In this document: one piece after another, positions 5,562-49,469 of the stretch | Numbering within the stretch: position 1 is the first letter of the stretch | Layout: every line of letters begins with the position of its first letter | Assembly: GCA_034176765.1 (NCBI GenBank) | Contig: JAXFTN010000131.1 | Span: 942-64,941, forward strand | Reading direction: 5' to 3' | Length of the DNA stretch: 64,000 bases | Source of the DNA: Bacilli bacterium | GTDB taxonomy: Bacteria > Bacillota_I > Bacilli_A > RFN20 > CAG-826 | The notes under the pieces: model-generated | What the model was told of the DNA's origin: nothing | The model's database searches: none | What the model saw: only the letters and a program-made list of their open reading frames with translations | Position numbers and translations under genes: made by a program

Positions 5562-5571
5562 GGAGATAAAT

Positions 5572-6093
5572 ATGATTACTATATCAATACTAGGATTAGA
5601 TCAATTTGTTGTTGGTGATTACTCTCGTGAGATTACAAAAAAAATCGCTGATGCTTATGAAATTAACGAAGATGAAATTTTATTTTATGCTCCACAAGCT
5701 TTTATCTTCCATAAAGGATTTGATCAATCAGCTTACAATGTAGTTGTTAAAGTTGAAGCTGAAAGAAAATATGAAGTTTTTGAAAAAATTGTCTTTACTA
5801 TAATTTCAAAAACTTTATCTAAATATGTTATTCATATGAATATTCAATTTGTATATTTTGATGAAGAACATTGTTATTCATATAAAAATGAAGAATATCC
5901 ATTATATATGAGCGATTCAAATGTTGTTTATGATGGTGGTTATGAAGAAGAATCTGATGAAGATGTTGAAGTTTATGATGGAAACATTTTTGAAAATCTA
6001 GATGAATTAATCGAAGAAAAACAACGTGAACATGATGAACAAAATAATTGTGATTGTGATCATCACAATTGTGATTGTGGCCACAAGCATTAA
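5572..6093 (+). CDS. Hypothetical protein with an acidic linker and a Cys/His-rich C-terminal tail
   Basis: RBS AAGGAGA is present. A ~110-aa globular N-terminal part is followed by an E/D-rich low-complexity segment and the terminal CDCDHHNCDCGHKH. Confidence 0.4.
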   Translation: MITISILGLDQFVVGDYSREITKKIADAYEINEDEILFYAPQAFIFHKGFDQSAYNVVVKVEAERKYEVFEKIVFTIISKTLSKYVIHMNIQFVYFDEEHCYSYKNEEYPLYMSDSNVVYDGGYEEESDEDVEVYDGNIFENLDELIEEKQREHDEQNNCDCDHHNCDCGHKH

Positions 6094-6211
6094 CAATTTC
6101 ACCTCAAGTATTTATAAATTATTTAACTTGAGGTTTTTTATTTTAAAAAATAAATTGTTATATTGCTTATAATATTTTGACTTGTTAAAATATTAAAAGG
6201 GAGTGATTAGA

Positions 6212-7486: not shown

Positions 7487-7487
7487 A

Positions 7488-8525
7488 ATGATCAATTTAT
7501 ATGGTTTAGAAATTAAAAAATTAGAAAGTTTAATGCTTGCAGAAGGTCAAACAAAGTATAGGGCAACGCAACTTTATACTTGGTTATATGAAAAAAAAGC
7601 AAAGTCATTTGATGAAATGACTGACATTTCTCTTCGCTTTCGTGAAGTATTAAAAGAAAAATATTGTTTCGAAATACCTTCCATTTTTGTTAAGCAACAA
7701 AGTAAAGATGGTACTATTAAATGTTTATTAGAACTTAAAGATGGTTCTAAAATTGAGACTGTTTTAATGCGTTATAATTATGGAAATGTAATTTGTGTTA
7801 CTTCTCAAGTAGGATGTAACATGGGATGCAGTTTTTGTGCAAGTGGATTGTTAAAAAAGCAACGTGACTTATTACCTGAAGAAATGGTTGGTCAAGTTCT
7901 AGTAATGAATAATTTATTACAAGAAGAAGGAAATAATCAAAGAGTTACTCATGTTGTTGTTATGGGAACTGGCGAGCCTTTTGATAATTATGATAATGTA
8001 ATTGATTTTGTAAGGATTATAAACCACCAAAAAGCATTAGCAATAGGTGCTAGACATATTACTGTTTCAACATGTGGAATTCCTGATAAAATCATTAAAT
8101 ATGCAAATGAGGGTTTACAAATTAACCTAGCTATTTCTTTGCATGCACCTAATAATGAAATTCGTTCAAAGATTATGAAAATTAATAAAGCATATCCTTT
8201 AGAAGTTTTAATTCCTGCCGTAGCAGAATATAACAGAATTGCTGATAGAAGAGTTACATATGAATACATTTTATTAAAAGGAATAAATGATTCAATGGAA
8301 AATGCTGATGAACTAGCAAGACTAATTAAACCTACTTTTGCTTATGTTAATTTAATTCCATATAATGAAGTTGATGAACATGGTTATCGTCGTTCAGATA
8401 ATGTTAAAGCTTTTTTAGATAGATTAATTAAGAACAATGTTACTGCTACTATACGCAAAGAATTTGGTTCAGATATCGATGCAGCATGTGGGCAATTAAG
8501 AGCAAAACAAGAAGGTAAATTATAA
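7488..8525 (+). CDS. rlmN: 23S rRNA (adenine2503-C2)-methyltransferase, radical SAM
   Basis: Radical-SAM motif GCNMGCSFCASG is present and the ORF matches RlmN over its full length. Confidence 0.92.
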   Translation: MINLYGLEIKKLESLMLAEGQTKYRATQLYTWLYEKKAKSFDEMTDISLRFREVLKEKYCFEIPSIFVKQQSKDGTIKCLLELKDGSKIETVLMRYNYGNVICVTSQVGCNMGCSFCASGLLKKQRDLLPEEMVGQVLVMNNLLQEEGNNQRVTHVVVMGTGEPFDNYDNVIDFVRIINHQKALAIGARHITVSTCGIPDKIIKYANEGLQINLAISLHAPNNEIRSKIMKINKAYPLEVLIPAVAEYNRIADRRVTYEYILLKGINDSMENADELARLIKPTFAYVNLIPYNEVDEHGYRRSDNVKAFLDRLIKNNVTATIRKEFGSDIDAACGQLRAKQEGKL

Positions 8526-8528
8526 ACT

Positions 8529-9386
8529 ATGAAAGGAATAATTGTTTCTTCTATTTGTGGAACATATAAAGTTTTAATAAAAGGACAGGAGTATAATGTA
8601 ACAGCTCGTGGACTTTTTAAGCATCACAAAAGAAAACTAATTGTTGGTGATTATGTTGAAATTGATGAAAAAGAAAATATGATTACTAATTATTATGAAC
8701 AAACAAATTCATTCATTAGACCTAGTATTGCTAATGTTGATCAAGCAGCTGTTGTTATGTCTGCTATCGAACCTGAGTTTTCATTATTTTTAGTTGATAA
8801 ATTTTTAACTTATATAAATTTTAATAATGTTAATGGAATTGTTATTATTACAAAAGTTGATAAATTAAATAATAGAGATGAAATTGAAAAATATAAACGT
8901 ATTATTGAGTCATACGGTGTTAAGGTTATATATTTTTCTAAGGTTACTAAAGAAGGTGCATCAAGTCTTATTGAAGTATTTTCAAATAAAACAACGGTTT
9001 TAATGGGTCAGTCAGGAGTAGGAAAATCATCGCTCCTAAATGCTTTAATACCAGAATATAATCGTTTAATAGGTGAATATTCTAGCGCATTAGGTAGAGG
9101 TAAACATCAAACTAAAGAAGTAGTTTTATTACCTTTTTATAATGGATTTATTGCTGACACACCTGGATTTTCTAGTTTAGATATTGAACTAACACCCAAA
9201 CAAATCGCTATGAGTTTTCCAGTGATTAAAGAATATTATGGTACATGTTTTTTCGCTGACTGCTTGCATATCAGTGAAAAAGGTTGTAAAGTGAAAGAAA
9301 GAATAGATAATGGTTTTTCTTCATTATCTTATGAGAATTATTTAGTTCTTATTAAGGAAGCTAAGGAAAGGAAGGCTAAATATTAA
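8529..9386 (+). CDS. rsgA: Ribosome small-subunit-dependent GTPase A
   Basis: Circularly permuted GTPase with GQSGVGKSSLLNAL. C-terminal zinc finger CFFADCLHISEKGC is present. Confidence 0.88.
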   Translation: MKGIIVSSICGTYKVLIKGQEYNVTARGLFKHHKRKLIVGDYVEIDEKENMITNYYEQTNSFIRPSIANVDQAAVVMSAIEPEFSLFLVDKFLTYINFNNVNGIVIITKVDKLNNRDEIEKYKRIIESYGVKVIYFSKVTKEGASSLIEVFSNKTTVLMGQSGVGKSSLLNALIPEYNRLIGEYSSALGRGKHQTKEVVLLPFYNGFIADTPGFSSLDIELTPKQIAMSFPVIKEYYGTCFFADCLHISEKGCKVKERIDNGFSSLSYENYLVLIKEAKERKAKY

Positions 9387-9388
9387 TT

Positions 9389-10060
9389 ATGAAAGAAATT
9401 ATAGTTGCACCATCGCTTTTAGCATGTAAAAGAGAAGAAGCACCACATCAAGTTGCATTAATGCAACAATATGGAGCAAAATGGCTTCATTTTGATGTAA
9501 TGGATGGAATTTTTGTTCCAAATACTTCTTTTGCTTCCGATTATATTTATGAAATTAAAAAGTTTCATCATTTATTATTAGATGTTCATTTAATGGTCGA
9601 TAATCCACTTGATTATATTGACGAATATAAAGAAGCAGGAGCTAGTTATTTAACTTTTCATTATGAAAGTTTTTATGATGATGGCCAAAGATATGAAATG
9701 ATTAAAAGAATAAAAAAAGCAGGAATGAAAGCTGGTATGTCTATTAAACCAAATACTCCTGCAAGTGTATTATTTGATTTTTTGGAAGATTTAGATCTTG
9801 TTTTAATAATGTCAGTTGAACCTGGAAAAGGTGGTCAATCTTTTATAGAAACAAGTACTAAAAAGATTTTAAAAATAGCTAAGGAAAGAGAGCATATTAA
9901 TAATAAAAATCTTTTAATATCTGTTGATGGAGGAATTAATAATATTACTGGTGAATATTGTAAAGAAGCAGGAGCCGATGTTTTAGTAGCTGGCTCATAT
10001 TTATTCCATCAAGATAATATTGGAGAACGCATTAATAGATTGAAAGGTCGTATTAAATAA
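9389..10060 (+). CDS. rpe: Ribulose-phosphate 3-epimerase
   Basis: LHFDVMDGIFVPN and SVDGGIN motifs are present. Length is 223 aa. Confidence 0.9.
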   Translation: MKEIIVAPSLLACKREEAPHQVALMQQYGAKWLHFDVMDGIFVPNTSFASDYIYEIKKFHHLLLDVHLMVDNPLDYIDEYKEAGASYLTFHYESFYDDGQRYEMIKRIKKAGMKAGMSIKPNTPASVLFDFLEDLDLVLIMSVEPGKGGQSFIETSTKKILKIAKEREHINNKNLLISVDGGINNITGEYCKEAGADVLVAGSYLFHQDNIGERINRLKGRIK

Positions 10061-10695
10061 TGAATTTTACTTTTATTATTTGGGGGAGTGCAGTTTTATT
10101 AAGCTTCATCCTTTTGATAATTTTTGGATGCTTTTTATATAGGTTAGCTACTAAAAAGAAATATTCAATACTTTCTTTTTTTCCATTTGAAATTTTTCAA
10201 TATAAAAATGGTAATCTAAATATTATTCTACAAATTCTTTGTATTATATTCTGTGCTACTTATGGAATTTTTAATATTAACGTTTTTACTACATATTTTG
10301 GCACTTTCTTTAAAATAGAAATAGTATTTGTTTCTTTTATTACGATATTAACAATATGTATTTTTTACCTTCGAATTGGTAGTGATAAAGTTCATATTAT
10401 TGCATCTACATTCTTCTTAGTATTTTCAGCTATGAATTCGTTTTATTTATCCTATATTTTGTTTATAACAAATTATATTCTTGTATATAAAGCATTAAAT
10501 TACATAATCTTTGGTATAGCAATCATTAAGTTAGGTTTGATATTAAATCCGAAGATGAAAACATGTTTCAAACTCTATAAAGATGAAGATGGTGATTTAT
10601 ATAGACCAAAAGTGTTTTATTTAGCTTTTAGCGAATGGGCTATATTAATACTAAATATTGTTGAAGTTATTTTAATTGCTACAGGACTTAAGTAA
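10060..10695 (+). CDS. Hypothetical polytopic membrane protein
   Basis: ATG overlaps the rpe stop. About 6 predicted helices. No recognisable motif. Confidence 0.4.
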   Translation: MNFTFIIWGSAVLLSFILLIIFGCFLYRLATKKKYSILSFFPFEIFQYKNGNLNIILQILCIIFCATYGIFNINVFTTYFGTFFKIEIVFVSFITILTICIFYLRIGSDKVHIIASTFFLVFSAMNSFYLSYILFITNYILVYKALNYIIFGIAIIKLGLILNPKMKTCFKLYKDEDGDLYRPKVFYLAFSEWAILILNIVEVILIATGLK

Positions 10696-10701
10696 TAAAA
10701 A

Positions 10702-10736
10702 AATCATCTCATTACGAGATGATTTTTTAGTCTTCT
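10702..10736. terminator. Bidirectional rho-independent terminator (serves the + membrane-protein gene and the - strand rpmB)
   Basis: Hairpin ATCATCTC-attacg-AGATGAT flanked by A-run/T-run. Confidence 0.6.
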
Positions 10737-10921
10737 TTTGACATTTTATTAAGGGTTCTGTAGGCACGTGCAGACATACGAACTGTTTTAACTTGTCCGT
10801 CAACCATTACCTTATATGGTTGAAGATTAACGTTCCATTTACGACGTGTAGCTCTTAATGAGTGGGAACGATTGTTTCCGCTTAATGGGCCTTTACCTGT
10901 AACTGGGCAAACTCTTGACAT
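10727..10921 (-). CDS. rpmB: 50S ribosomal protein L28
   Basis: MSRVCPVTGKGPLSGNNRSHSLRATRRKWNVNLQ is the canonical L28 sequence. Confidence 0.92.
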   Translation of the reverse strand: MSRVCPVTGKGPLSGNNRSHSLRATRRKWNVNLQPYKVMVDGQVKTVRMSARAYRTLNKMSKED

Positions 10922-11062
10922 AATTCTTAACCTCCCTTAATTTTAACGATTCTTCATTGTGTAAATTTACTTACACACGCTTTATGATAATAACATTTAG
11001 CAGTTTTTTTTGCAATAAATATTTATATTTTTTTAATTTTTTTAGAAAAAAACATCGTTTTA

Positions 11063-11530
11063 TCACTTTATAAAACCGTTTTTTATCATTTCTTCTTTAG
11101 AGATAGTATTCTTACAATATTTTATTAAACAATCAAATAAAACATTTTTTCGATCTTTTGTAAGATAGATTGTTTGTCCTGTAGTTAAGAAAACAGCGAT
11201 ATAATTCTTCTTTTTATCATTAGCTGAATTTTCATCAATATATAAAATATCTTTGTACAATAGATTTACAACTCCATTTGGTTTTCTTACTTTTAAGCAA
11301 TCTGATGTAAACTCTATAGATGTTTTCTTAAGTGATACTCCATAGAAAAAAATAGCTGGTATATTTAAGACTAGATAGAAAACAATATGATATATAATTG
11401 AAGTTTTATCCATGCCATTTAATTTTGGTTGTATAAATGCCAAAAAATAGATTATATCAACTCCAATTAATGAAAATGTAAGTATAAGTGTGTTTCTTAA
11501 ATGATTAGGTTTTAAGACCATTTTGTTCAC
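11063..11530 (-). CDS. Hypothetical membrane protein (two N-terminal helices plus a soluble YdbS/PH-like domain)
   Basis: Hydrophobicity pattern only. No catalytic motifs. Confidence 0.35.
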   Translation of the reverse strand: MNKMVLKPNHLRNTLILTFSLIGVDIIYFLAFIQPKLNGMDKTSIIYHIVFYLVLNIPAIFFYGVSLKKTSIEFTSDCLKVRKPNGVVNLLYKDILYIDENSANDKKKNYIAVFLTTGQTIYLTKDRKNVLFDCLIKYCKNTISKEEMIKNGFIK

Positions 11531-11629
11531 CTCTTTTTTATTTTAGCATATTTGGAAAATAATAAAAAAATATTAATAAATATATATTCTTATGATATAA
11601 TTAAAAAATGACTTAAGGAGGAAAAAATT

Positions 11630-13057
11630 TTGAAATTATTTGATTATATTCCACAAAACTTTTTCTCTATTCTCTCTAGTAAAAATAAAGATATTTATGC
11701 TATTGCTTTAATAGTGCTTCATAAATCTCTTCAAACTGAGGAAATGTCAATTAAAAAAGAAGATTACATTAGAGTTTTAAAAGAAAAAGCTAATGATATC
11801 ATAAATAATTTGGATGTTGATAGTGAAGAAGAAGTAGATGATGATACCAAAGAATCTTTAGTAAATATATCTTCTAAAGTTGCTTTTATTGTTAGAAGAC
11901 TTGAAGAAACTGGATGGATCGAAACAGAATTAAGAACTGATACTTTTGATGAATACATAATTTTACCTACTTATTCAATTCAAATGTTAAATGTATTATA
12001 CAATTTTGTTTCTGATCAAGAAACTGCATATAATTCTCTTGTTCACTCAACATATATTGACTTGAAATTTGAAGATGATGAACCTGATGAATTTATGTAT
12101 GCTACATTAGTAAGAGTTTACGAGAATACAAAAAATTTAAAAGTTGAACTTATTACATTAGGGCATCAAATTAGGATGTATCAAAATCGTCTAAGTAAAT
12201 TCTTTACAACAAACGATATTTTACATGACCATTTTGATGAATATAAAGTTCGTATTTCAGATAAATTATATCACCCATTAAAAACTTTTGATTCTGTTAC
12301 TAAATTCAAAAGACCAATAATTAATATTTTACAAAAGTGGTTGCGTAGCGAAGAAATTCGTAGCCGTATTGTTATGCAAGCAGTTGCATATGGTCGAAGC
12401 AAATCTAAAGAAGAAGTTGAAGCTGATATTATTGAAAAGATAAATTATATTTGTGATATGTATGAACAAATTAATTTAATGGTATCTGATATTGATGCAA
12501 AGCATTCAGAATATACAAAATCATCAGCAACAAAAATTATTTATCTAAATAATTCAGATAAATCAATTAAAGGTCATTTAGAGACGATCTTTAAAGCTTA
12601 TGCAAAAGCAAATAATGACGGAAAAGGTCTTGCTAATATTTTATCTAATATGCAACAAAGCATAAACGTAACAAATCAAGGTTTCATTGATCCTGATTCA
12701 TTAACTTTACCTCTTGTTAGAAATAGTCGCGTAGATTATGAACCTATGAAAATTATAAATACTTCAGAAGAAGCTGGAGATTATATGATGGATATTTTCT
12801 TAAGGGAAGCTCAATCTTCTTACACTGATGAGATGATTTATGAATTTATGCAACGTGCTTTCCAAGGTGAAGAAGAAGTGTTAATTAGTGATATCCCACT
12901 TCCAAGTTTTGATGCCTTTGTATTATTAATTCTTGGCACACTTAAAAAAGACGATGAAAAATGTTTCTATGAAGTTATCCAAGAAGAAGGTAAACTTCAT
13001 TCACAAGGTTATGTCCTACCAAATATAAAATTTAAGAGAAAGGAAGTATTAAATTAA
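11630..13057 (+). CDS. jetA: JetA-like protein (DUF3375; MksF/kleisin-like subunit of a Wadjet/MksBEF-type SMC complex)
   Basis: TTG start 8 nt after AAGGAGG. A TGaTATAAT extended -10 is upstream. It is the first gene of a three-gene operon ending in an SMC-like ATPase. Size of 475 aa and acidic helical composition are typical of JetA. Confidence 0.6.
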   Translation: MKLFDYIPQNFFSILSSKNKDIYAIALIVLHKSLQTEEMSIKKEDYIRVLKEKANDIINNLDVDSEEEVDDDTKESLVNISSKVAFIVRRLEETGWIETELRTDTFDEYIILPTYSIQMLNVLYNFVSDQETAYNSLVHSTYIDLKFEDDEPDEFMYATLVRVYENTKNLKVELITLGHQIRMYQNRLSKFFTTNDILHDHFDEYKVRISDKLYHPLKTFDSVTKFKRPIINILQKWLRSEEIRSRIVMQAVAYGRSKSKEEVEADIIEKINYICDMYEQINLMVSDIDAKHSEYTKSSATKIIYLNNSDKSIKGHLETIFKAYAKANNDGKGLANILSNMQQSINVTNQGFIDPDSLTLPLVRNSRVDYEPMKIINTSEEAGDYMMDIFLREAQSSYTDEMIYEFMQRAFQGEEEVLISDIPLPSFDAFVLLILGTLKKDDEKCFYEVIQEEGKLHSQGYVLPNIKFKRKEVLN

Positions 13058-13058
13058 T

Positions 13059-13691
13059 ATGTTTGAAGAAGAAATTGTAAAACTTTCAAATCAAGAACAA
13101 AAACAATTTGCTCAAGTTGTAAACAATTTATTATCCCAATCATATATAGTTCGTGAATATTACGATAGCCGTGAAAAAATGATCAAAATGAGTAATGACT
13201 ATCGTTTCATTGAAAGATATTATGAAGTATTTGAAGAATATCTTAAATATTCAGGTTGGACATTGGATAAAGATACGGCAACTGGTGTTATCGCTATTCG
13301 TAATGATTTTGATCAAAATCGTTTAAAAGTTGATAGAGAAACTTCTTTGGTTTTATTTACATTAAGATTTATTTATGAAAATGAAAATTCAAAAAACAAT
13401 GCAGCTAATCTAGGTGTTGGAAAAAATGTTTACTTAACAACACCTGAATTAATGAAATTTATGGTTGAGTATGGAATAACAATGCAAGGCAAAAAATTAA
13501 CAGGTCGTGGTTTAGGCCGTTGTTTACGTTTTGCTAACCAACACAATATTATTTCTAAAGTTAGTGGTACATTTGATGAAGGTAATGTCACTTTCTATAT
13601 TTTACCTTCAATTGCATTTGCTGTTGATAGTCAAAAGATAGCTGCAATGAGTGATGCTTTAGAAAAGTTAAGAGCAATGGAGGGCGAGTAA
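13059..13691 (+). CDS. jetB: JetB-like protein (DUF4194; MksE-like)
   Basis: Length is 210 aa. It is coupled by 1-2 nt spacing to jetA and jetC. Position and size match JetB/MksE. Confidence 0.6.
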   Translation: MFEEEIVKLSNQEQKQFAQVVNNLLSQSYIVREYYDSREKMIKMSNDYRFIERYYEVFEEYLKYSGWTLDKDTATGVIAIRNDFDQNRLKVDRETSLVLFTLRFIYENENSKNNAANLGVGKNVYLTTPELMKFMVEYGITMQGKKLTGRGLGRCLRFANQHNIISKVSGTFDEGNVTFYILPSIAFAVDSQKIAAMSDALEKLRAMEGE

Positions 13692-13692
13692 T

Positions 13693-16600
13693 ATGAAATC
13701 ATTAAAGAAAATGAAATTAATTAACTGGCACTATTTCTGGAATCAAACTATTGAATTCCAACCACTTGTTTTCTTAACAGGTTTAAATGGTTCTGGTAAA
13801 TCTACACTTATTGATGCTATGCAAGTTTTATTACTTGGTGATACATCAGGAAGGTTCTTCAATAAAGCTGCAACAGAAAAATCATCACGTACACTTAAAG
13901 GATATTTAAAATGTGAATTAGGTGATGCTGAAGATGGTGGCTTTAGATATTTAAGAAACGGTCGTTTTACTTCATATATTGCTATGGAGTTTTATGATGA
14001 TGTTAATAAATCATCATTTACATTTGGTATTGTTTTCGATGTTTTTCCAGATGGTGGAGTTGATCATCGCTTTTTCTGTTTAGATGATAAAATACCTGAA
14101 AATGAATTTATCGTTGATGATACACCACTTGATTTTAAACAATTAAGTGCATATTTTGCTGAAAATTATCCAAGTAAATTTAAATTCTTGGATTCAAATA
14201 AACAATATCAAGAATTATTAAAGAGACGTTTTGGTGGGTTAAAAGAAAAATATTTCTCTTTATTTAAGAAGGCTGTTTCTTTTACTCCTATTACTGACAT
14301 TGAGACTTTTATTACTGAATATATATGTGATTCACAAGCAAACATTAACATTAGTTCTATGCAAGAAAATATTCTTCAATATAAAAAACTACAAAATGAA
14401 GCTAATGTAATGGCTAATCGTATTCAAAGATTAACTGAAATTTCTAATGCGTATATTCAACATCAACAACAAAAAGAATCAGAAACATTATTTTCTTATA
14501 TTGTTGAAAAAGCCGATTATGAAAATGATTTAGCACGTATTAAAACATATAAAGTTGCTATTGAAGATGCTCAAAAAAGACTTCGTGATATTGAAAGTGA
14601 TTTAGTATATAATGATGACCAAATCAAAATATTAACAAGAAAAAAAGAACAATTAATATCGGATAAACTAAATAACGATACCTATAAATTAACTGACGAT
14701 TTATGGGAAGAAAAGAAAAAGTATGAAGAATCTTTAGCACGTATTGAAAAAGATAAAAATGTTACAATTGAAAACTTAAATAAGTATGCTACTTCATATC
14801 TTGAAACAGCTCAATTAATTTCATCAACATTATCAACTTTTGATTTAACTTTAATCGAAAAAGAACATCTTGATGATATTAATAAATTAATAGAATTATC
14901 TAGTGAAGTTATTGAAAAATGTTTAGAATTCAAGAATGTATATCTTGTTAATATTGAATCTTTAACTTCATTTGCACTAAATGAGTGGAGACAATTATTA
15001 GAAAGCTTTAAACAAACTATTTCTGGTTTTAATTTTAATTTATCCAAAATCGTTGCAGCTACTGAACAAAAAGCAGCTGTATTAAGACAACAAGAAGTTG
15101 ATATGCGTAATGGTGGTAAATCATATGAACGTGGATTAGTTTATTTACGTAATGAATTAATGTCTGAATTATCTAGAAGATATAATAAGAAAATTGATGT
15201 TTATATTTATGCTGATTTAGTTGACATTAATGATGAAAAATGGGGTAAAGCTATTGAAGGCTTCTTATACAATCAAAAATTCAATTTATTTGTTGATCCA
15301 CTTTATTATGCTGAAGCTCATGATATTTTAAAGAACTTGATGCGTTCATGTAATTATTATCATACAAGTTTAGTCGACCAACAAAAAGTTATCGAAAGAA
15401 ATTTTATCTGTGAATCAGGCTCTTTAGCAGAAGAAATTATTACTGATCATCAAGGAGCTAGAGCATATACTAATTTCTTATTAGGACGATTAATTAAATG
15501 TGATACTGTTAAACAAGCACGTAACTCTGGAAATGGTATTACAATGGACTGTGATTTATATAGAAACTTTACATTGTCTGTAATTCAACCACAACTTTAT
15601 CAAACTGCATATATTGGTAGAAGAGTTGGCGAAGAACAAATTTTAGCTAAACATAAAGCAGTTGAAGACTGCCGTAAATTATGTGATTCTTATCGTAGTT
15701 TGCACGATATCATTTCTGAAGCTAATGAACTTGAAGTTATTAATACATATGAAGTTAATAATTCGATGGCATTGATTGAAAATGCTTCAAATATTAAAGC
15801 TATTAAAGAAAACTTGAAGTTTATTGAAGACGAATTAAATAAACATGATTTAACTCAAATTCAATCATATGAACAACGTATTAGCGATATTACAGAAGAT
15901 CTTGAACAATTAGCAAAAGAAAAAGAAGATTTGTTAATTGAAAAAGGTAATTTGATTTCTCAAATAAAGAATTATCAAGAAGAGAAATTACCAAAAGAAC
16001 AATGTGCAGCTAATGAACGTTTAGAACGTTTAGAAAATATGTATGATGGTTTCTTTATTGATGAAATCGGTAATGTTGAATATCAAAAATTAGTCGATCA
16101 AGGTAAGACTACTATTGAAATTGTTACTGAAACTAAAGTCAACTTATCTAAAGCTCAATATTTAGCTAATTCTTCTAAATCAGCTGTCATTAGATTACGT
16201 AAAGATTATATTAAAGATTATCGTCTTTCATATGATGTTGATTCTGATGACAATGATGTTTACGATAATGAGCTAAATGAAATGAGAGATATTAAGTTAC
16301 CTCAATATCAATTAGCAATTGATGACGCATATAATAAAGCAACAAAACAATTTAAAGATGACTTTATTAATAAGTTAAGAACAGCAATTGAAACTGTTGA
16401 ATCACAAATTGATGAATTGAATGTTGCTTTAGCATCTTCTACATTTGGTAATGATTCTTATCGCTTCTTAGTAAGACCTTCAGTTGAATATCGTAAATAT
16501 TACGATATGATTAAAGATGATTTATTACTACAAGTTGGTGAAGATGATTCTGCTTTTGTCGAAAAATATAAAGATGTCATGGATGATTTATTTAGACAAA

Positions 16601-17073
16601 TAGTTGATGTAGGTGGACATGATGAAAGACAAAGTGCAATTATTGCAAATGTTGAAAAATTCACCGATTATCGTTCTTATCTTGATTTTGATATTGTTGT
16701 TACTAATAAAGATGGTATCGAACAACACTTATCAAAAACAATTAAGAAAAAATCTGGTGGTGAAACACAAACTCCTTTCTATATTGCTGTTCTAGCATCT
16801 TTTGCTCAATTATATAGAGTAAATGAGCCTGGAGAATTAGGTAATTCATTTAGACTAATTATCTTTGATGAAGCATTCTCTAAAATGGATAGAGGACGTA
16901 TTAAAGAATCAATTAGATTGTTATCAAAATTCGGATTACAAGTTATATTATCAGCCCCATCTGATAAGGTTGGAGATATCTCTGAGCTTGTAGATGAAAC
17001 TCTAGTTGTATTACACGATAAGTCTTCTTCAAGTGTCCGTTTATATGCTGAAGAAAAGAAATTATTAAACTAA
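13693..17073 (+). CDS. jetC: JetC-like SMC-family ATPase (MksB-like)
   Basis: N-terminal LINWHYFWNQTIEF...LTGLNGSGKSTLIDA (Walker A). There is a long central coiled-coil region. C-terminal ABC signature SGGETQ and Walker B LIIFDEAFSKMD are present. Length is 1126 aa. Confidence 0.78.
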   Translation: MKSLKKMKLINWHYFWNQTIEFQPLVFLTGLNGSGKSTLIDAMQVLLLGDTSGRFFNKAATEKSSRTLKGYLKCELGDAEDGGFRYLRNGRFTSYIAMEFYDDVNKSSFTFGIVFDVFPDGGVDHRFFCLDDKIPENEFIVDDTPLDFKQLSAYFAENYPSKFKFLDSNKQYQELLKRRFGGLKEKYFSLFKKAVSFTPITDIETFITEYICDSQANINISSMQENILQYKKLQNEANVMANRIQRLTEISNAYIQHQQQKESETLFSYIVEKADYENDLARIKTYKVAIEDAQKRLRDIESDLVYNDDQIKILTRKKEQLISDKLNNDTYKLTDDLWEEKKKYEESLARIEKDKNVTIENLNKYATSYLETAQLISSTLSTFDLTLIEKEHLDDINKLIELSSEVIEKCLEFKNVYLVNIESLTSFALNEWRQLLESFKQTISGFNFNLSKIVAATEQKAAVLRQQEVDMRNGGKSYERGLVYLRNELMSELSRRYNKKIDVYIYADLVDINDEKWGKAIEGFLYNQKFNLFVDPLYYAEAHDILKNLMRSCNYYHTSLVDQQKVIERNFICESGSLAEEIITDHQGARAYTNFLLGRLIKCDTVKQARNSGNGITMDCDLYRNFTLSVIQPQLYQTAYIGRRVGEEQILAKHKAVEDCRKLCDSYRSLHDIISEANELEVINTYEVNNSMALIENASNIKAIKENLKFIEDELNKHDLTQIQSYEQRISDITEDLEQLAKEKEDLLIEKGNLISQIKNYQEEKLPKEQCAANERLERLENMYDGFFIDEIGNVEYQKLVDQGKTTIEIVTETKVNLSKAQYLANSSKSAVIRLRKDYIKDYRLSYDVDSDDNDVYDNELNEMRDIKLPQYQLAIDDAYNKATKQFKDDFINKLRTAIETVESQIDELNVALASSTFGNDSYRFLVRPSVEYRKYYDMIKDDLLLQVGEDDSAFVEKYKDVMDDLFRQIVDVGGHDERQSAIIANVEKFTDYRSYLDFDIVVTNKDGIEQHLSKTIKKKSGGETQTPFYIAVLASFAQLYRVNEPGELGNSFRLIIFDEAFSKMDRGRIKESIRLLSKFGLQVILSAPSDKVGDISELVDETLVVLHDKSSSSVRLYAEEKKLLN

Positions 17074-17085
17074 ATCAAGAAAATA

Positions 17086-17112
17086 ATGTTCGGAGCAATC
17101 CGAACATTTTTT
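17086..17112 (+). terminator. Rho-independent terminator after jetC
   Basis: Hairpin TGTTCGGAGCAATCCGAACA followed by a T7 run. Confidence 0.7.
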
Positions 17113-17213
17113 TGCATTATTTTTTTCGAATTTTTCGATGAATTATTTACTTTATGTACAAAATTTGAGAAAATAAGATGAACGAAGTAACTCACAATAA
17201 TAGGAGGATAAAA

Positions 17214-18329
17214 ATGAAAAATGAGATTGTTGCTATGCTTTTAGCTGGTGGAAAAGGAACTCGACTTGAATCATTAACAAAAAAGGTTGCTAAACCAGCT
17301 GTTAGCTATGGTGGTAAATATAGAATTATTGATTTTCCACTTTCAAATTGTGCAAATTCAGGCATTAATATAGTTGGTGTTTTAACTCAATATGAATCAG
17401 TTGATTTAAATAATTATTTGGGTGATGGTAAGAAATGGGGACTTGATGGTGTTCGTTCATTAATTTCACTTTTACCTGCTCGTCAGACTGAAACTGGAAT
17501 GAACTGGTATGCTGGTACAGCTGATGCTATATATCAAAATTTAGATTTTTTAGATAGTCAGGATCCTGAATATGTCTTGATTTTATCAGGCGATCATATC
17601 TATAAAATGAATTATGAAAAAATGCTTCAATATCATAAAAAGATGAATGCTGATGCTACTATTGCTGTTTTAAATGTTGACATAGAAGAAGCAAGTAGAT
17701 TTGGTATTATGAATGTTAATGATGACATGTCTATTTATGAATTCGAAGAAAAACCAAAACACCCTAAATCAACACTTGCATCAATGGGCATCTATATTTT
17801 CACATATTCTACTTTAAGAAAAGCTCTTGTAAAAGATGCTTCAAATGAAGCTTCATCTCATGATTTTGGAAAAGATATTATCCCTTATTTATTAAGTAAA
17901 AAGAAAAAGTTAATGGCTTATAAGTTTGAAGGATATTGGCGCGATGTTGGAACTATTCAATCTTTATGGCAAGCTAATATGGATCTATTAGGTAGTACTC
18001 AAGATGTAGGTATTTATAGTGATACAATGAAGATTTATTCAGAAGATACAAACTCAGTTCCACAATTTGTTGGTAAGATGGCTGATATTAAAGATTCATT
18101 GATTAATCAAGGAGCTATCGTTCTTGGAAAGGTATACCATAGTGTTGTTTTTAATGAAACAATTATTGGCAAAAAGTCTATGGTTGTTGATTCTGTAATT
18201 ATGCCTGGAGCAAAAATAGGTGAAAATTGTTGTATTAATAAAGCAATTATTCCAAATGACTGTGTAATTCCTGATAATACGGATGTTAATGTTAAATCTA
18301 ACACTGTCATTTTATATAAGGGTAAATAG
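17214..18329 (+). CDS. glgC: Glucose-1-phosphate adenylyltransferase
   Basis: RBS AGGAGGA is present. N-terminus [14 protein letters not shown]...[15 protein letters not shown]-terminal left-handed beta-helix region. Confidence 0.9.
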
Positions 18330-18340
18330 GGGGTATATGT

Positions 18341-19453
18341 ATGAGACGTGTAATCGGATTTTGTAATTTACATAATTCACCTTCACTTGGTGAACTAACA
18401 AAAAATCGTACTCTTGCTTCTACTTCATTTTTAGGAAGATTTGCTTTTATTGACTTCACACTTTCTAACTTTTCAAATTCTGGAGTCGATGAAATTGGTA
18501 TTTTATGTCAAGATCATGTACGTTCATTGACTAAACATTTAGGATTCCAAAATTCTTGGAATATCAATACAAAGATTGGTTCCAATATTGTTATGTATAA
18601 TGAAGAAAAATTTAATAATCCTCGTTATAATAATGACTTGAATAATATTAGAACAAATGACTGGTTTTTAATTAAATCAAATGCAGAGTTTGTAGTAATT
18701 GCTCCTGTACATTTCTTATGTACTATTGACTATAGTAAGGTTATTGATGAACATATTAAATCGGGAGCAGATGTTACTGTAGTTTATAAACGTATTGATT
18801 ATGCTAAAGAAGCAGCTATTGGTGTTAAAGCTCTTGAAGTTGATGACGATAAAAAAGTAATAAATATCTATGAAAATCGTGGCGCAAATAATGTTGCTAA
18901 TATATCACTCGAAAGTTATGTAATGACTAAAGATTATTTAAGAAAGATTCTTAAAGAATCATTGGAAATTTCATCTGTTTTTAGTTTGACTGATTATTTA
19001 TCGCATTGCATTAATTCTATTAATTTGAAAGGCTATGAATATACAGGATTTGTTAGATGTGTTGATAGTCTTGAAAAATATCTTGATGTATCGCTTGAAA
19101 TGTTTTCTTATGATAAGCGTAAAGAATTATTTAAAGAAGGATGGCCAATATATACTGTAACTCACGATACACCTCCAACTAGATATGGTAGCAATGCAAA
19201 AGTTAGTAATTCTATTGTTGCTAACGGTGCTATTATTGATGGAACAGTTGAAAATTCTATTATTTCACGTTCAGTAGTTGTCTCATCTGGTGCAAAGGTT
19301 ACTAACTCTATCATTTTAACTGAAACATATATTTCTAATGATACAGTTTTAGATTATTGTATTGTTGATAAATATTCACGTATATTATGTGTTAAGGAAT
19401 TAAAGGGTAAGAAAAATAACCCTATATATGTCAAGCAAGGAGATATTATTTAG
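18341..19453 (+). CDS. glgD: Glycogen biosynthesis protein GlgD (regulatory GlgC paralog)
   Basis: GlgC-like fold lacking the catalytic GGxGxRL loop. Immediately downstream of glgC, as in Firmicutes glgCDA operons. Confidence 0.8.
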   Translation: MRRVIGFCNLHNSPSLGELTKNRTLASTSFLGRFAFIDFTLSNFSNSGVDEIGILCQDHVRSLTKHLGFQNSWNINTKIGSNIVMYNEEKFNNPRYNNDLNNIRTNDWFLIKSNAEFVVIAPVHFLCTIDYSKVIDEHIKSGADVTVVYKRIDYAKEAAIGVKALEVDDDKKVINIYENRGANNVANISLESYVMTKDYLRKILKESLEISSVFSLTDYLSHCINSINLKGYEYTGFVRCVDSLEKYLDVSLEMFSYDKRKELFKEGWPIYTVTHDTPPTRYGSNAKVSNSIVANGAIIDGTVENSIISRSVVVSSGAKVTNSIILTETYISNDTVLDYCIVDKYSRILCVKELKGKKNNPIYVKQGDII

Positions 19454-19456
19454 TTT

Positions 19457-20893
19457 ATGAATATAGTTATGTCATGTAGTGAAGCTACTCCTCTAGCTAA
19501 AACCGGAGGACTAGCTGATGTAGTTCATGCTTTATCAGCTGAACTAGTAAAATTAAATCATAAGGTATATATTATAATGCCTTATTATCAATCGATTAGA
19601 AATAAATCTGAAGCTAATATAAGACCAATTGCAAAATACAAAGTTGATTTAGCTTGGAGAAAACAAGAATGTGAAGTTTACGAAACAATAATTAATGGAA
19701 TTACTTATATTCTTATTGGCAATGTTCAATATTTTAATAGACAAAATCTATATGGTTATGATGATGATAATGAAAGATTTGCTTTTTTAAGTTTGGCAAC
19801 AAGAAAAGTTATTGAAGAATTAGATTTAAAACCTGATATTATTCATTGTCATGATTGGCATGTTGGTATGTTACCTGTTTTAATAAAGGAACAAAATGCT
19901 AATGATATAAGATTTAAAAACGTTAGATTTGTTTTAACAATTCATAACCCAGCATTTAAGGGAATGTTTGATCCTTATTTCTTGGGTGATTATTATGGAT
20001 TAAGTGATGAATTATATTCAACAGGTAAGGTTCGTTATAATGGAGCTGTGTCTTCGTTAAAAGCTGCTATTATGTATTGCGATAAAATTACTACTGTTAG
20101 TCCAACTCATGCTGAGGAACTTTTATCTCCAGACTCAGGACATGATTTAAATACCGTTTTGGAATTAAGACGTTTAGATTTTTGTGGTATCCTAAATGGT
20201 ATCGATTATAGTGAATTTGATCCAGAAAAAGATGATAAAATATATCGCAATTTTAAAGAAAGAACATTAACTATAGGTAAAAGATTTAATAAATCAAAAC
20301 TTTTAGAAGAAATGCACTTAGATCAAAATTCAAAGCCATTGTATGGCATGGTATCTCGTCTTACTTGGCAAAAAGGATCCGAACTTGTTGTTGCTGCTGC
20401 TGAAAAAATTCTTCAATCAGGTTGTTCACTTATTATTTTAGGAAGTGGTGAATATAATTTTGAGCAAGAACTTGAAAGATTAAGAGCCAAATATCCTAAT
20501 CAGATGGGTATTTACATTGGTTATAATGATGTGCTTGCTCATAAGATCTATGCTGCTTGTGATATATTCTTAATGCCATCTTTATTTGAACCATGTGGCA
20601 TTAGCCAGATGATTGCTTTACGATATGGTGCTATTCCTCTAGTACGTATGACAGGTGGTTTAAACGATACAGTTATTCCATATGTTCAAGATAATAGAAA
20701 TATTGCTACAGGTTTTGGATTTTATGCTTATGAAAAGGAAGCAATCTGTAATACAGTAAGTTGGGCTAATTATTGTTTTGAAAATGAAGCATTATTTAAA
20801 AAATTACGTAAAAATGCAATTCAATGTAATAACGATTGGTCAAAATCTGCTAATGAATATTTAAATATTTATAAAGAAGCAATGAATAAATAA
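19457..20893 (+). CDS. glgA: Glycogen synthase (ADP-glucose type)
   Basis: N-terminal SEATPLAKTGGLADVV is the GlgA KTGGL motif. Length is 478 aa. Confidence 0.9.
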   Translation: MNIVMSCSEATPLAKTGGLADVVHALSAELVKLNHKVYIIMPYYQSIRNKSEANIRPIAKYKVDLAWRKQECEVYETIINGITYILIGNVQYFNRQNLYGYDDDNERFAFLSLATRKVIEELDLKPDIIHCHDWHVGMLPVLIKEQNANDIRFKNVRFVLTIHNPAFKGMFDPYFLGDYYGLSDELYSTGKVRYNGAVSSLKAAIMYCDKITTVSPTHAEELLSPDSGHDLNTVLELRRLDFCGILNGIDYSEFDPEKDDKIYRNFKERTLTIGKRFNKSKLLEEMHLDQNSKPLYGMVSRLTWQKGSELVVAAAEKILQSGCSLIILGSGEYNFEQELERLRAKYPNQMGIYIGYNDVLAHKIYAACDIFLMPSLFEPCGISQMIALRYGAIPLVRMTGGLNDTVIPYVQDNRNIATGFGFYAYEKEAICNTVSWANYCFENEALFKKLRKNAIQCNNDWSKSANEYLNIYKEAMNK

Positions 20894-24547: not shown

Positions 24548-24689
24548 CTCTTTTCTATCATAGAACTTAACATTATCAAAATTTGATAGTGTGATATTTT
24601 TTTTGTAACAATTAGTAAATAAATTAAAGTTTCTATTTGTTATTGACTTTATATTTTGATTTTGATTTAATAATTTTGATAAAAGTAGT

Positions 24690-24875
24690 AGTAATTACTT
24701 ATTAAGATTGTAGAGAGTTAGTGGTTGGTGAAAACTAATATTTTAAAGTAATGAACTCGACTTTGTGTAAAGTATCCGTTAATCTGCGTTAAAGATATTA
24801 ATGAGTGCACGAATCGTGAATTAAGGTGGTACCGCGCTTAAAGGCGTCCTTATGTTTTAAGGGCTTTTTTTATTT
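24690..24875 (+). promoter_or_regulatory. T-box leader (Leu-specific) controlling leuS
   Basis: Stem-I elements (AGAGAG, GTGGTTGGTG) are present. A CUC specifier sits in GAACTCGA. Conserved T-box sequence AATTAAGGTGGTACCGCG is at 24819-24837. It is followed by terminator GCGCTTAAAGGCGTCC...GGGCTTTTTTT. Confidence 0.7.
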
Positions 24876-43517: not shown

Positions 43518-43527
43518 AATAATACCT

Positions 43528-46489: not shown

Positions 46490-46491
46490 AT

Positions 46492-46872: not shown

Positions 46873-46873
46873 A

Positions 46874-49289: not shown

Positions 49290-49469
49290 TTCTCCACCTT
49301 CTTTCACCTTTAAAACTATACCACTATAAGATTTTTAAATCAATTATTACATAGTAATAATATAGTATTTATCATAAATATTTTTTTATTAATGAAATAT
49401 GTTTTTCTTAACAATAAAGTACAAAAAAAATAAAATTTGTTTTTTTTTATCAAAACTAGTCGTTATTAG

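What the first reader, a model, noticed from the sequence alone, without database searches (positions are those of the whole stretch)
11630..17073. Stand-alone JetABC (MksF/E/B-like) SMC operon with no JetD/MksG nuclease gene
What the sequence shows: three tightly coupled genes of 475, 210 and 1126 aa sit behind a TGaTATAAT extended -10 and a TTG-initiated first gene. The last encodes an SMC-family ATPase with an N-terminal Walker A (LTGLNGSGKST), a long coiled-coil middle, and C-terminal SGGE signature plus Walker B (IIFDEAFSKMD). The operon ends at a clean terminator at 17086-17112. It is flanked by rpmB/membrane genes and glgC, and no Toprim/DUF2220 (JetD/MksG) ORF lies on either side. What follows from established knowledge: in Wadjet anti-plasmid systems the DNA-cleaving JetD subunit is encoded with jetABC; MksBEF modules lacking MksG act as condensins. 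Inference: this is either a chromosomal MksBEF-type condensin in a low-GC Gram-positive genome (unusual, since such genomes normally rely on Smc-ScpAB), a nuclease-less Wadjet remnant, or a JetABC that partners with a nuclease encoded elsewhere. Composition looks native (as AT-rich as its neighbours), which argues for a domesticated function.
Basis: partly seen in the sequence, partly recalled or inferred. Interest (0 to 1): 0.72.

Follow-up and report, generated by a model that had tools for sequence, protein, structure and literature searches.

The report
Nuclease-free Wadjet SMC operon, domesticated
This is an intact three-gene DNA-motor operon descended from an anti-plasmid defence system whose DNA-cutting subunit is absent from every related locus examined; a large group of uncultured low-GC gut and digester bacteria has kept it as conserved as a housekeeping gene, making it a natural example of a defence machine probably turned chromosome organiser.

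Summary
Genes at 11630-13057, 13059-13691 and 13693-17073 encode type I Wadjet JetA (kleisin), JetB (KITE) and JetC (SMC ATPase), with promoter, RBS, TTG start and terminator as described. No JetD-like sequence occurs in the 64-kb window, nor within about 10 kb of jetABC in roughly 50 related genomes. The operon is neither a remnant nor a mobile defence island. In 43 species-level relatives (JetC 42-98% identical) it lies in the same core-genome position, next to glgC-glgD-glgA and usually after rpmB. It diverges in step with its neighbours and as slowly as they do. dN/dS is about 0.02 and the ATPase motifs are invariant. The nearest Clostridial relatives carry jetD directly after jetC, next to transposases in two of three loci. 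All sampled Bacilli branches lack it and form one group nested among them, which fits a single old loss. The JetC loop that aligns with the JetD-docking Phe919 of E. coli is hydrophobic/aromatic in the Clostridial relatives, all three of which checked for context carry JetD. In the JetD-less lineage it is shorter and acidic. The best reading is a domesticated, nuclease-independent loop-extruding SMC complex of the MksBEF type. I could not check whether Smc-ScpAB, or a jetD elsewhere, exists in these genomes.

The parts
11573..11601 (+). Candidate sigma-70-type promoter: -35-like TTAATA, 17-nt spacer, extended -10 TGATATAAT
   Evidence: It is one of only two + strand sites in the scanned region matching 10 of 12 positions, and the only one of those with a TG extension, and it sits just upstream of jetA. 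It is a consensus match only.
11615..11621 (+). Shine-Dalgarno AAGGAGG, 8 nt before the TTG start
11630..13057 (+). jetA: kleisin subunit, 475 aa, type I JetA/DUF5716 family
   Evidence: Pfam PF18982 at 2.5e-94, covering model positions 2-434 of 434. PADLOC JetA1 PDLC00449 at 4.5e-132. dN/dS is 0.018 against L001.
13059..13691 (+). jetB: KITE subunit, 210 aa, DUF4194/MukE-like
   Evidence: Pfam PF13835 at 1.3e-16. PADLOC JetB1 PDLC00502 at 3.2e-67. A profile of JetB sequences hits the solved JetB chains 8dk1_E and 8as8_C at 1e-9.
13693..17073 (+). jetC: SMC-family ATPase, 1126 aa
   Evidence: PADLOC JetC1 PDLC00519 at E = 0, 1124 bits, residues 1-1123. Pfam AAA_29 plus SbcC_Walker_B. The closest solved chains are E. 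coli and P. aeruginosa JetC, 9qxt, 8as8 and 8dk1.
13780..13806 (+). JetC Walker A, GLNGSGKST (aa 30-38)
   Evidence: The core residues are conserved in 41 of 42 clade sequences.
16531..16554 (+). JetC 'larynx' loop QVGEDDSA (aa 947-954): acidic, with no aromatic residue; it aligns with the JetD-docking F919 segment of E. coli JetC
   Evidence: In the Clostridial relatives (JetD confirmed in the 3 checked) this loop is 9-11 residues, hydrophobic and aromatic.
16753..16770 (+). JetC ABC signature motif SGGETQ (aa 1021-1026)
   Evidence: Invariant in 42 of 42 clade sequences.
16858..16890 (+). JetC Walker B / D-loop IIFDEAFSKMD (aa 1056-1066)
   Evidence: Ten of the 11 positions are invariant in 42 of 42 sequences and one in 40 of 42.
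17085..17113 (+). Intrinsic terminator: 10-bp stem, 4-nt loop, T-run
10727..11530 (-). Conserved upstream context: rpmB (10727-10921) and a 155-aa membrane-like ORF (11063-11530), divergent from jetA
   Evidence: rpmB lies upstream of jetA in 26 of the 43 related loci, and the 155-aa ORF has homologues in 28 of the 43 (29 counting L060). Neither matches a Pfam or PADLOC family.
17178..20893 (+). Conserved downstream context: glgC, glgD, glgA
   Evidence: glgC follows jetC in 41 of 43 related loci; of the other two, one contig ends at jetC. The same adjacency appears in the deeper JetD-less branches L153 and L156.

Best explanation
The locus is a type I Wadjet-derived SMC complex: JetA kleisin, JetB KITE dimer and JetC ATPase. 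The JetD Toprim nuclease was lost in the ancestor of a large lineage of uncultured low-GC Bacilli, and the rest has been inherited vertically as a core chromosomal operon ever since.

Shown here: (1) the three proteins are full-length members of the same PADLOC sub-families as a genuine JetABCD system of Desulforamulus; (2) no jetD occurs in the window or near jetABC in about 50 related genomes; (3) the operon keeps a fixed core-genome position, diverges in step with its neighbours and is under housekeeping-level purifying selection; (4) the ATPase motifs are invariant; (5) the JetC surface loop that aligns with the JetD-docking phenylalanine of E. coli JetC has become a shorter, acidic loop.

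Inferred: the complex still assembles as a kleisin-bridged dimer of SMC motors and extrudes DNA loops using ATP. Without a nuclease, and without the docking site for one, it acts on the host chromosome as a condensin-like organiser and segregation aid. That is the role shown for the nuclease-less MksBEF of Pseudomonas aeruginosa and proposed for the origin of MukBEF.
For: Family. The window proteins, the second JetD-less group (L153) and the JetD+ Desulforamulus system all hit the same best models (PDLC00449, PDLC00502 where tested, PDLC00519).

No JetD: (home-made profile on 2.46 Mb of window plus loci; only the positive controls hit). Precomputed Pfam lists show no PF09983 in L060, L148-150 or L153-156.

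Synteny.

Co-divergence and rate: mean pairwise identity is JetC 57%, JetA 57% and JetB 60%, against GlgA 54%, GlgD 50%, Rpe 53% and RsgA 46%. JetC distances correlate with GlgD (rho 0.91), JetA (0.90) and GlgA (0.82).

Selection: dN/dS is 0.018-0.025 for jetA, jetB and jetC at dS about 0.4-0.6, equal to glgC and glgD.

Motifs.

Polarity of the loss: jetD lies directly after jetC in the Clostridial relatives L151, L152 and L158, with transposases nearby in the first two. The NJ tree nests the two JetD-less Bacilli groups together among them.

Docking loop: in the JetD-less groups (n = 129 and 36) the linker is 8 aa with 2.7-3.1 acidic and 0-0.01 aromatic residues. In the Clostridial groups (n = 80) it is 9-11 aa with about 1.0 aromatic and 0.25-0.5 acidic residues. 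E. coli JetC F919E abolishes restriction (10.1101/2023.11.03.565488).

Against: No functional data exist, and all members are uncultured.

Only the window (64 kb) and about 10 kb either side of jetABC in relatives were searchable. A jetD or another effector elsewhere in the genome is therefore not excluded, and the presence of Smc-ScpAB is unknown.

The loop contrast reflects essentially one evolutionary transition, so it is a correlate and not proof. Its equivalence to E. coli F919 rests on a sequence alignment at about 25% identity. One verified JetD+ relative, Caldicoprobacter, has Ala at the aligned column, although an aromatic residue lies two positions earlier.

The extreme N-terminus of JetB (MF-E-[FY]) is retained from the JetD+ relatives (MW-E-[WY]). 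If that segment corresponds to the JetD-binding IFDR peptide of E. coli JetB, a docking partner may still exist.

Strong vertical conservation is also seen for some bona fide defence systems.
Confidence: 0.6

Rival explanations
1. The complex still performs plasmid or episome defence, but without cutting. JetABC extrudes small circular DNA completely, stalls on it and holds, compacts or silences it, or interferes with its partition. This would resemble Smc5/6 silencing of episomal DNA.
For: The JetABC sensing module is fully intact and belongs to the same sub-family as active restriction systems. In type I JET, shape and size sensing reside in JetABC, and a stalled state holding U-shaped DNA forms without JetD (10.1101/2023.11.03.565488). 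The JetB N-terminal segment is retained.
Against: In every Wadjet system tested, restriction needs the nuclease; in C. glutamicum a mksG null behaves like a mksB null (PMC10123090). The housekeeping-like rate, fixed core position and lack of a defence-island context are atypical for defence genes.
Confidence: 0.2
2. JetABC works with a nuclease encoded elsewhere in the genome: either a relocated jetD or a non-homologous effector that docks at a different site.
For: Only 64 kb of this genome and about 10 kb flanks in relatives were searched. The JetB N-terminus is conserved. Two other lineages lacking jetD in cis, Amphritea and Agathobacter rectalis, keep the hydrophobic docking motif, so trans arrangements or recent losses may exist in nature.
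Against: In all JetD+ relatives examined, jetD directly follows or overlaps jetC. The JetC loop aligned with the JetD-docking Phe is replaced by acidic residues throughout the Bacilli lineage, and the analogous F919E change inactivates E. coli JET. No candidate effector is conserved next to the operon: the optional neighbours are membrane proteins, a DUF3137-family protein where Pfam-tested and otherwise without Pfam matches.
Confidence: 0.12
3. The operon is a decaying or functionless remnant of a Wadjet system that lost its effector.
For: jetD is missing.
Against: All three ORFs are intact in every one of the 43 species-level relatives whose contig spans them, and in deeper branches too. dN/dS is about 0.02. 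The signature and Walker B motifs are essentially invariant and the Walker A core residues are conserved in 41 of 42 sequences. Promoter, RBS and terminator are in place.
Confidence: 0.02

Closest known systems
Type I Wadjet / JET nuclease (JetABCD; E. coli GF4-3, P. aeruginosa PA14, B. cereus Q1; here the Desulforamulus ferrireducens and Caldicoprobacter faecalis loci L151 and L152)
   Same: The same three sensor and motor subunits in the same order. The same best PADLOC sub-models as the Desulforamulus system. JetC is 37-40% identical to the nearest JetD+ Clostridial proteins. The closest solved structures are JetC and JetB of E. coli and P. aeruginosa.
   Different: There is no jetD. The JetC loop aligned with the JetD-docking F919 is shorter and acidic. 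The operon has a fixed core-genome location and vertical inheritance, rather than the transposase-flanked, patchy occurrence of L151 and L152. Its evolutionary rate matches housekeeping genes.
MksBEF condensins without MksG (P. aeruginosa MksBEF; mycobacterial MksB)
   Same: A kleisin-KITE-SMC operon that lacks the nuclease, is chromosomal, and is thought to derive from a Wadjet-like ancestor by loss of JetD (PMC10586767). The P. aeruginosa complex promotes chromosome contacts and backs up segregation (10.1101/2020.05.18.101659), and the mycobacterial one positions the replication machinery (PMC11329512).
   Different: It is in a different phylum (Bacillota, class Bacilli). The direct type I ancestry is still recognisable at E = 0, with identifiable JetD+ sister lineages. 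From memory, not tested here, the P. aeruginosa kleisin belongs to the DUF3375 family rather than DUF5716. No functional data exist for this clade.
MukBEF of Enterobacteria and relatives
   Same: An SMC/kleisin/KITE complex with a dimer-of-motors architecture. It is hypothesised to be a domesticated Wadjet relative that became a lineage-wide, vertically inherited chromosome organiser.
   Different: Sequence similarity is marginal (Pfam MukB N-terminal domain at 24.7 bits against a cutoff of 23; no MukE or MukF match). MukBEF replaced Smc-ScpAB in its hosts, and whether that happened here is unknown.

Membership tests
Wadjet type I (JetABCD) | JetA kleisin of the PF18982/DUF5716 family | tested here: met
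   PF18982 at 2.5e-94; PADLOC JetA1 at 4.5e-132.
Wadjet type I (JetABCD) | JetB KITE subunit (DUF4194) | tested here: met
   PF13835 at 1.3e-16; JetB1 at 3.2e-67; the JetB profile hits solved JetB chains at 1e-9.
Wadjet type I (JetABCD) | JetC SMC-type ATPase with intact Walker A, signature and Walker B motifs | tested here: met
   JetC1 at E = 0, matched end to end. The signature and Walker B motifs are essentially invariant across 42 clade sequences, and the Walker A core residues are conserved in 41 of 42.
Wadjet type I (JetABCD) | JetD Toprim/aCAP nuclease encoded in the operon | tested here: not met
   No JetD profile hit in the window or in any JetD-less locus, while positive controls scored 1e-93 to 1e-179. 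No PF09983 appears among the called neighbours.
Wadjet type I (JetABCD) | Hydrophobic 'larynx' residue of JetC that docks the JetD aCAP pocket (E. coli F919) | tested here: not met
   The aligned loop is QVGEDDSA here. JetD-less lineages average about 3 acidic and 0 aromatic residues, against about 1 aromatic in the Clostridial relatives, which carry JetD in the 3 checked. The equivalence is by sequence alignment only.
Wadjet type I (JetABCD) | JetB N-terminal peptide (IFDR motif) that binds JetD aCAP | tested here: inconclusive
   The solved proteobacterial JetB chains have an N-terminal extension of about 33-45 residues that is absent here. The short MF-E-[FY] N-terminus is shared with JetD+ Clostridial JetB, which has MW-E-[WY]. 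Its correspondence to IFDR is unknown.
Wadjet type I (JetABCD) | ATP-dependent cleavage or restriction of small circular DNA | not testable with these tools
   This needs biochemistry or a heterologous plasmid-restriction assay.
Wadjet type I (JetABCD) | Patchy, horizontally spread occurrence typical of defence systems | tested here: not met
   The syntenic position is fixed in 43 species-level genomes, and the operon co-diverges with its neighbours. Composition is native. By contrast, the JetD+ loci L151 and L152 lie next to transposases.
MksBEF-type nuclease-less condensin | Kleisin-KITE-SMC operon without MksG/JetD | tested here: met
MksBEF-type nuclease-less condensin | Maintained by purifying selection as a chromosomal gene set | tested here: met
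   dN/dS is about 0.02. The rate is equal to or slower than GlgA, GlgD, Rpe and RsgA.
MksBEF-type nuclease-less condensin | Contributes to chromosome folding or segregation | not testable with these tools
   This needs Hi-C, a deletion or heterologous complementation.
MksBEF-type nuclease-less condensin | Relation to Smc-ScpAB in the same genome (co-existence or replacement) | not tested
   No smc, scpA or scpB lies in the 64-kb window.
MukBEF | MukB, MukE and MukF family membership | tested here: not met
   Only a marginal match to the MukB N-terminal domain (24.7 bits, cutoff 23). No MukE or MukF match.
Smc-ScpAB | Canonical Smc (SMC_N and hinge) with ScpA and ScpB partners | tested here: not met
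   SMC_N scores 21.8 bits, below the cutoff of 40. The partner proteins are JetA and JetB, not ScpA and ScpB.

The most novel reading that the evidence does not exclude
In this lineage of small-genome uncultured Bacilli, the nuclease-free type I JetABC has become the principal or sole chromosome-organising SMC complex, replacing Smc-ScpAB. That would be a second, independent MukBEF-like takeover and the first in Gram-positive bacteria, with its JetD-bearing sister systems still extant for comparison. The evidence does not exclude this. The operon is as conserved as core genes across the clade, some members assemble into contigs of about 1 Mb, and no smc or scpAB was seen in any sequence examined. 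However, only about 23 kb per genome was examined.
Probability: 0.17. Interest if true: 0.85.

Novelty: new member of a known kind. Interest (0 to 1): 0.55.

Why it matters
The SMC field currently proposes, without a worked natural example, that the chromosome organisers MukBEF and MksBEF arose when a Wadjet anti-plasmid system lost its nuclease and was kept for host genome maintenance. This locus looks like that process caught at an early, still legible stage. The three motor subunits are unmistakably type I Wadjet. The closest relatives in Clostridia still carry the nuclease, two of three in mobile contexts. An entire lineage of Bacilli lacks the nuclease, has remodelled the loop that aligns with its docking site on JetC, and preserves the motor under housekeeping-level constraint. 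That yields matched pairs for experiments: JetD+ Desulforamulus or Caldicoprobacter systems against the JetD-less Bacilli systems. Such pairs can show what changes are needed to convert a DNA-restricting SMC into a chromosomal one. The finding also warns annotators that JetABC hits without JetD in such genomes should not be scored as broken defence systems.

Tried and rejected
1. Exact look-up of the window's JetC: not on record. A 99% identical copy, P0001, gave only a 12-kb gut-metagenome contig.
2. NCBIfam has no curated family for JetA or JetB, and only sub-threshold hits for JetC.
3. The glgC-anchored metagenome scan was meant to test, without selecting on JetC, whether jetABC is always upstream of glgC in the clade. 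It returned only other lineages (GC 0.28-0.65) with no jetABC or rpmB hit, so it says nothing about universality within the clade.
4. Whole-genome searches for jetD, smc, scpA and scpB in the near-complete relatives were not possible. Finding Smc through the protein search was judged unworkable, because only the best 120 hits are listed.
5. Single-sequence PDB searches with JetA and JetB found nothing. Only a JetB profile reached the solved JetB chains.
6. A first attempt to locate the F919 equivalent using only distant JetD+ sequences was ambiguous. I initially suspected that the conserved F955 was the equivalent. With closer JetD+ relatives it proved conserved in both JetD+ and JetD- proteins, so it is structural.
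7. Equivalence of the JetB N-terminus to the IFDR motif remains unresolved.
8. The optional gene between jetC and glgC, and the DUF5677 gene upstream in some relatives, were considered as substitute effectors and rejected. The former is a membrane protein, DUF3137-family in the one Pfam hit (L005) and without a significant Pfam match in the others tested. Neither gene is universally present.
9. Amphritea, tested as an independent replicate of docking-loop erosion, did not show it: SLFD is retained.
10. Searches (mistaken reference; time-out; bad coordinates) produced nothing usable.
Full report
**1. The observation**

The three ORFs are exactly as described: 11630-13057 (475 aa, TTG start), 13059-13691 (210 aa) and 13693-17073 (1126 aa). 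They are separated by single nucleotides and all end in TAA.

Upstream lies TTAATA, a 17-nt spacer and TGATATAAT (11573-11601). AAGGAGG sits 8 nt before the TTG. Downstream, a 10-bp stem and T-run at 17085-17113 forms a terminator; the scan found 6 terminator-like sites against 1.2 expected. Promoter-like hexamers as a class are not enriched in this AT-rich DNA (38 against 48.6 expected). The promoter is therefore plausible by position and TG extension only.

JetC carries Walker A (aa 30-38), the signature SGGETQ (1021-1026) and Walker B (1056-1066). GC is 0.279 against 0.282 for the window, and GC3 is 0.13-0.16, which matches the neighbouring genes.

**2. Family**

Pfam gives JetA (PF18982, 2.5e-94, full model), DUF4194 (1.3e-16), and AAA_29 plus SbcC_Walker_B. 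PADLOC gives JetA1 (4.5e-132), JetB1 (3.2e-67) and JetC1 (E = 0, 1124 bits, end to end). This is the sensor and motor part of a type I Wadjet system, and the kleisin is DUF5716-type, not DUF3375.

The nearest solved structures are E. coli and P. aeruginosa JetC and, by profile, JetB. MukB and Smc matches are marginal or below cutoff.

**3. No nuclease**

I collected annotated JetD proteins from Wadjet loci on plasmids and later from two Clostridial genomes. I searched their profile against all six-frame fragments of at least 30 aa in the window and in every locus fetched: 155 sources, 2.46 Mb, heuristic filters off. Only the seven known JetDs scored (1e-93 to 1e-179), and nothing else fell below E = 1.7.

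The rest of the window is ordinary core chromosome. It holds ppa, tal, gmk, rsmB-like, rlmN, rsgA, rpe, rpmB, glgCDA, asd, dapF, leuS behind a T-box, tex, coaX, peptidases, an Mrp antiporter, Rnf, ApbE and malQ. There is no smc, scpA, scpB or Toprim gene, and no defence hit among the unannotated ORFs.

**4. Relatives**

A scan of one genome per species found 43 loci from uncultured Bacilli. The records label them variously as Bacilli, Erysipelotrichales, Mollicutes/Tenericutes and Candidatus Onthovivens. Their JetC is 47-98% identical to the window's.

- In every locus whose contig spans them, jetA-jetB-jetC is intact and no gene of about 400 aa resembling jetD follows.
- glgC-glgD-glgA follows jetC in 41 of 43 loci, sometimes after an optional membrane protein (DUF3137-family in the one Pfam hit).
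- rpmB and a small membrane-like ORF precede jetA in most loci.
- A relative at 52% JetC identity, assembled into contigs of more than 1 Mb, shares the larger order rpmB-jetABC-glgCDA-...-leuS-tex-coaX with the window.

**5. Mode of evolution**

All-against-all comparisons give these mean pairwise identities:

| Protein | Mean pairwise identity |
|---|---|
| JetC | 57% (minimum 42%) |
| JetA | 57% |
| JetB | 60% |
| GlgC | 64% |
| GlgA | 54% |
| GlgD | 50% |
| Rpe | 53% |
| RsgA | 46% |
| RpmB | 75% |

JetC distances correlate with those of JetA (rho 0.90), GlgD (0.91) and GlgA (0.82).

Between the window and L001 (dS about 0.4-0.6), dN/dS is 0.018, 0.025 and 0.022 for jetA, jetB and jetC. For glgC and glgD it is 0.021 and 0.028. 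The signature and Walker B motifs are invariant in 42 of 42 sequences, apart from one Walker B position at 40 of 42, and the Walker A core residues are conserved in 41 of 42.

The operon therefore behaves like a vertically inherited core gene set. It is not a remnant, and it is not a mobile defence island.

**6. Where the nuclease was lost**

An exhaustive search of 1.84 billion representative proteins showed that the syntenic clade collapses to about three 50%-identity clusters. Below that lies a continuum of JetC relatives from 41% down to 28% identity. I sampled the gene contexts of the nearest of these.

- Three Clostridial branches carry JetD (PF09983) directly after jetC: Desulforamulus ferrireducens, Caldicoprobacter faecalis and P0127. 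The first two lie next to transposases.
- Four further Bacilli branches lack it: L153, L154, L155 and L156. Two of them again have glgCDA downstream, and L156 also has asd.
- One contig (L157) ends at jetC, so its status is unknown.

A neighbour-joining tree groups the window's clade and these further JetD-less Bacilli as sisters, nested among the JetD+ Clostridial systems. The window proteins, L153 and the JetD+ Desulforamulus system share the same best PADLOC sub-models. In Desulforamulus these are accompanied by a JetD1 of type PDLC00533. The simplest history is one ancient loss of jetD, followed by vertical descent.

**7. A molecular correlate**

In E. coli JET, the JetD aCAP domain docks on the JetC head 'larynx' through F919, and F919E abolishes restriction. 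A JetB N-terminal IFDR peptide also binds aCAP (10.1101/2023.11.03.565488; 10.1101/2025.03.10.642339).

With the closer JetD+ relatives as guides, the loop aligned to F919 differs sharply between the groups:

| Group | n | Loop length | Example | Aromatic | Acidic |
|---|---|---|---|---|---|
| Clostridial groups (JetD confirmed in the 3 checked for context) | 80 | 9-11 aa | EGLTLFSAS, QAGHNIFSAA, EGYNIASQI | about 1.0 | 0.25-0.5 |
| JetD-less, window's clade | 129 | 8 aa | QVGEDDSA | 0.01 | 3.1 |
| JetD-less, second Bacilli group | 36 | 8 aa | NVGDAEDV | 0 | 2.7 |

The Phe just downstream (F955 here) is conserved in both sets, so it is structural.

This argues that the nuclease partnership has truly been abandoned. 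There are several caveats:
- It reflects one evolutionary transition.
- The equivalence to F919 is by alignment only.
- Caldicoprobacter has Ala at the exact column.
- The regular expression parsed only about 60% of the sequences held.
- The JetB N-terminus is retained (MF-E-[FY] against MW-E-[WY] in JetD+ relatives), and its relation to IFDR is unresolved.
- Two other lineages lacking jetD in cis, Amphritea and Agathobacter rectalis, keep the hydrophobic motif. The erosion is therefore specific to the Bacilli lineage.

**8. Mechanism**

Shown: an intact kleisin/KITE/SMC-ATPase set with no nuclease and no recognisable nuclease-docking loop, under core-gene constraint.

Inferred from established knowledge of type I JET and of MksBEF and MukBEF: JetA bridges JetC heads and dimerises two motor units, JetB dimers bind JetA, and ATP hydrolysis drives DNA loop extrusion. 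Without JetD the outcome is DNA folding rather than cleavage.

The most likely role is chromosome organisation and segregation, as for P. aeruginosa MksBEF (PMC10586767; 10.1101/2020.05.18.101659). I put this at about 0.6. The rivals are non-nucleolytic plasmid control (about 0.2), a trans-encoded effector (about 0.12) and a dead remnant (about 0.02).

**9. Novelty**

Nuclease-less Wadjet relatives are a known kind (MksBEF, MukBEF). Their origin by domestication of Wadjet is an explicit hypothesis in the literature (PMC10586767; 10.1101/2025.03.10.642339). Searches of the held library found no description of a type I-derived, JetD-less, vertically inherited lineage in Bacilli.

I file it as a new member of a known kind, of above-average interest, because both the JetD+ sister systems and the remodelled docking loop are visible. 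The open point that would raise its importance is whether Smc-ScpAB is absent from these small genomes. I could not test this.

Noticed in passing
L011, L042, L030, L027, L023, L028, L002 and others (jetC-glgC junction); window 17074-17177: In many relatives the gap between the jetC stop and the glgC start is only 4-30 nt. This suggests that jetABC and the glycogen-synthesis genes glgC-glgD-glgA are co-transcribed. In the window they are 104 nt apart with a terminator between them. The jetC-glgC adjacency persists even in the deepest JetD-less branches (L153, L156).
   Followed up: partly
L044-L058 (Amphritea spp.; L059 is Aliamphritea spongicola), e.g. L058:7831-13456: In the Amphritea loci long enough to show the region, a PADLOC type I JetA1/B1/C1 operon has no JetD hit within about 10 kb. 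It is conserved in synteny immediately downstream of a YcaO-family gene (Pfam-tested in L047). Unlike the Bacilli clade, it keeps the hydrophobic SLFD motif at the F919-aligned position. In L059 (Aliamphritea) the jet ORFs appear fragmented.
   Followed up: partly
L062 (Agathobacter rectalis NZ_CP143948.1, 251-kb record labelled plasmid): A type I jetABC is followed directly by carbonic anhydrase, an MFS transporter and other housekeeping genes, with no jetD. This is another candidate nuclease-less lineage, this time in a cultured gut Clostridium.
   Followed up: partly
L005:13421-14335, L016:13397-14254, L010:13441-14307, L153:9501-10532, L156:6640-7713: A subset of relatives carries an extra membrane-protein gene of about 285-357 aa between jetC and glgC. 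Of the three run through Pfam, L005 hit DUF3137 and L016 and L010 had no significant match; L153 and L156 have no precomputed Pfam hit. None shows similarity to JetD.
   Followed up: partly
L016:6753-7823 (also L018, L020, L021, L038, L039): A DUF5677 protein of about 356 aa is inserted on the minus strand between the rpmB-side genes and jetA in one subclade. Its function is unknown.
   Followed up: no
window 24667-24854: A T-box leader (Rfam RF00230, 107 bits) lies upstream of leuS (24891-27284).
   Followed up: no
window 40019-59454: A dense ion-motive cluster: a multi-subunit Mrp-type antiporter on the minus strand (about 40019-49307), Rnf complex genes on the plus strand (about 49504-54800) and two ApbE flavin-transferase genes (55984-57174 on the plus strand, 58141-59454 on the minus strand).
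   Followed up: no
window 4968-10921: The gene order gmk, rsmB-like, rlmN, rsgA, rpe, membrane protein, rpmB mirrors a conserved Bacillus subtilis region. From memory, not tested, that region continues some 15 kb later into rnc-smc-ftsY. Here jetABC-glgCDA follows rpmB instead, and no smc is present in the window.
   Followed up: no
window 3840-4817 (- strand): A single ORF combines a 2-thiouracil desulfurase domain (PF04463) with an ECF-transporter S component (PF07155), which is an unusual fusion.
   Followed up: no
L148:50-1922: In a relative with a contig of more than 1 Mb, two type I restriction S-subunit genes flank a phage-integrase-family recombinase about 6-8 kb upstream of jetA. This looks like a shufflon-type phase-variable RM locus.
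   Followed up: no
L065 (Salipiger sp. CCB-MM3 plasmid), about 7423-8217: jetABC is followed by an unannotated gap of about 800 nt where jetD would be expected. The JetD profile finds nothing there, so the gene may have been deleted or be highly degraded.
   Followed up: partly
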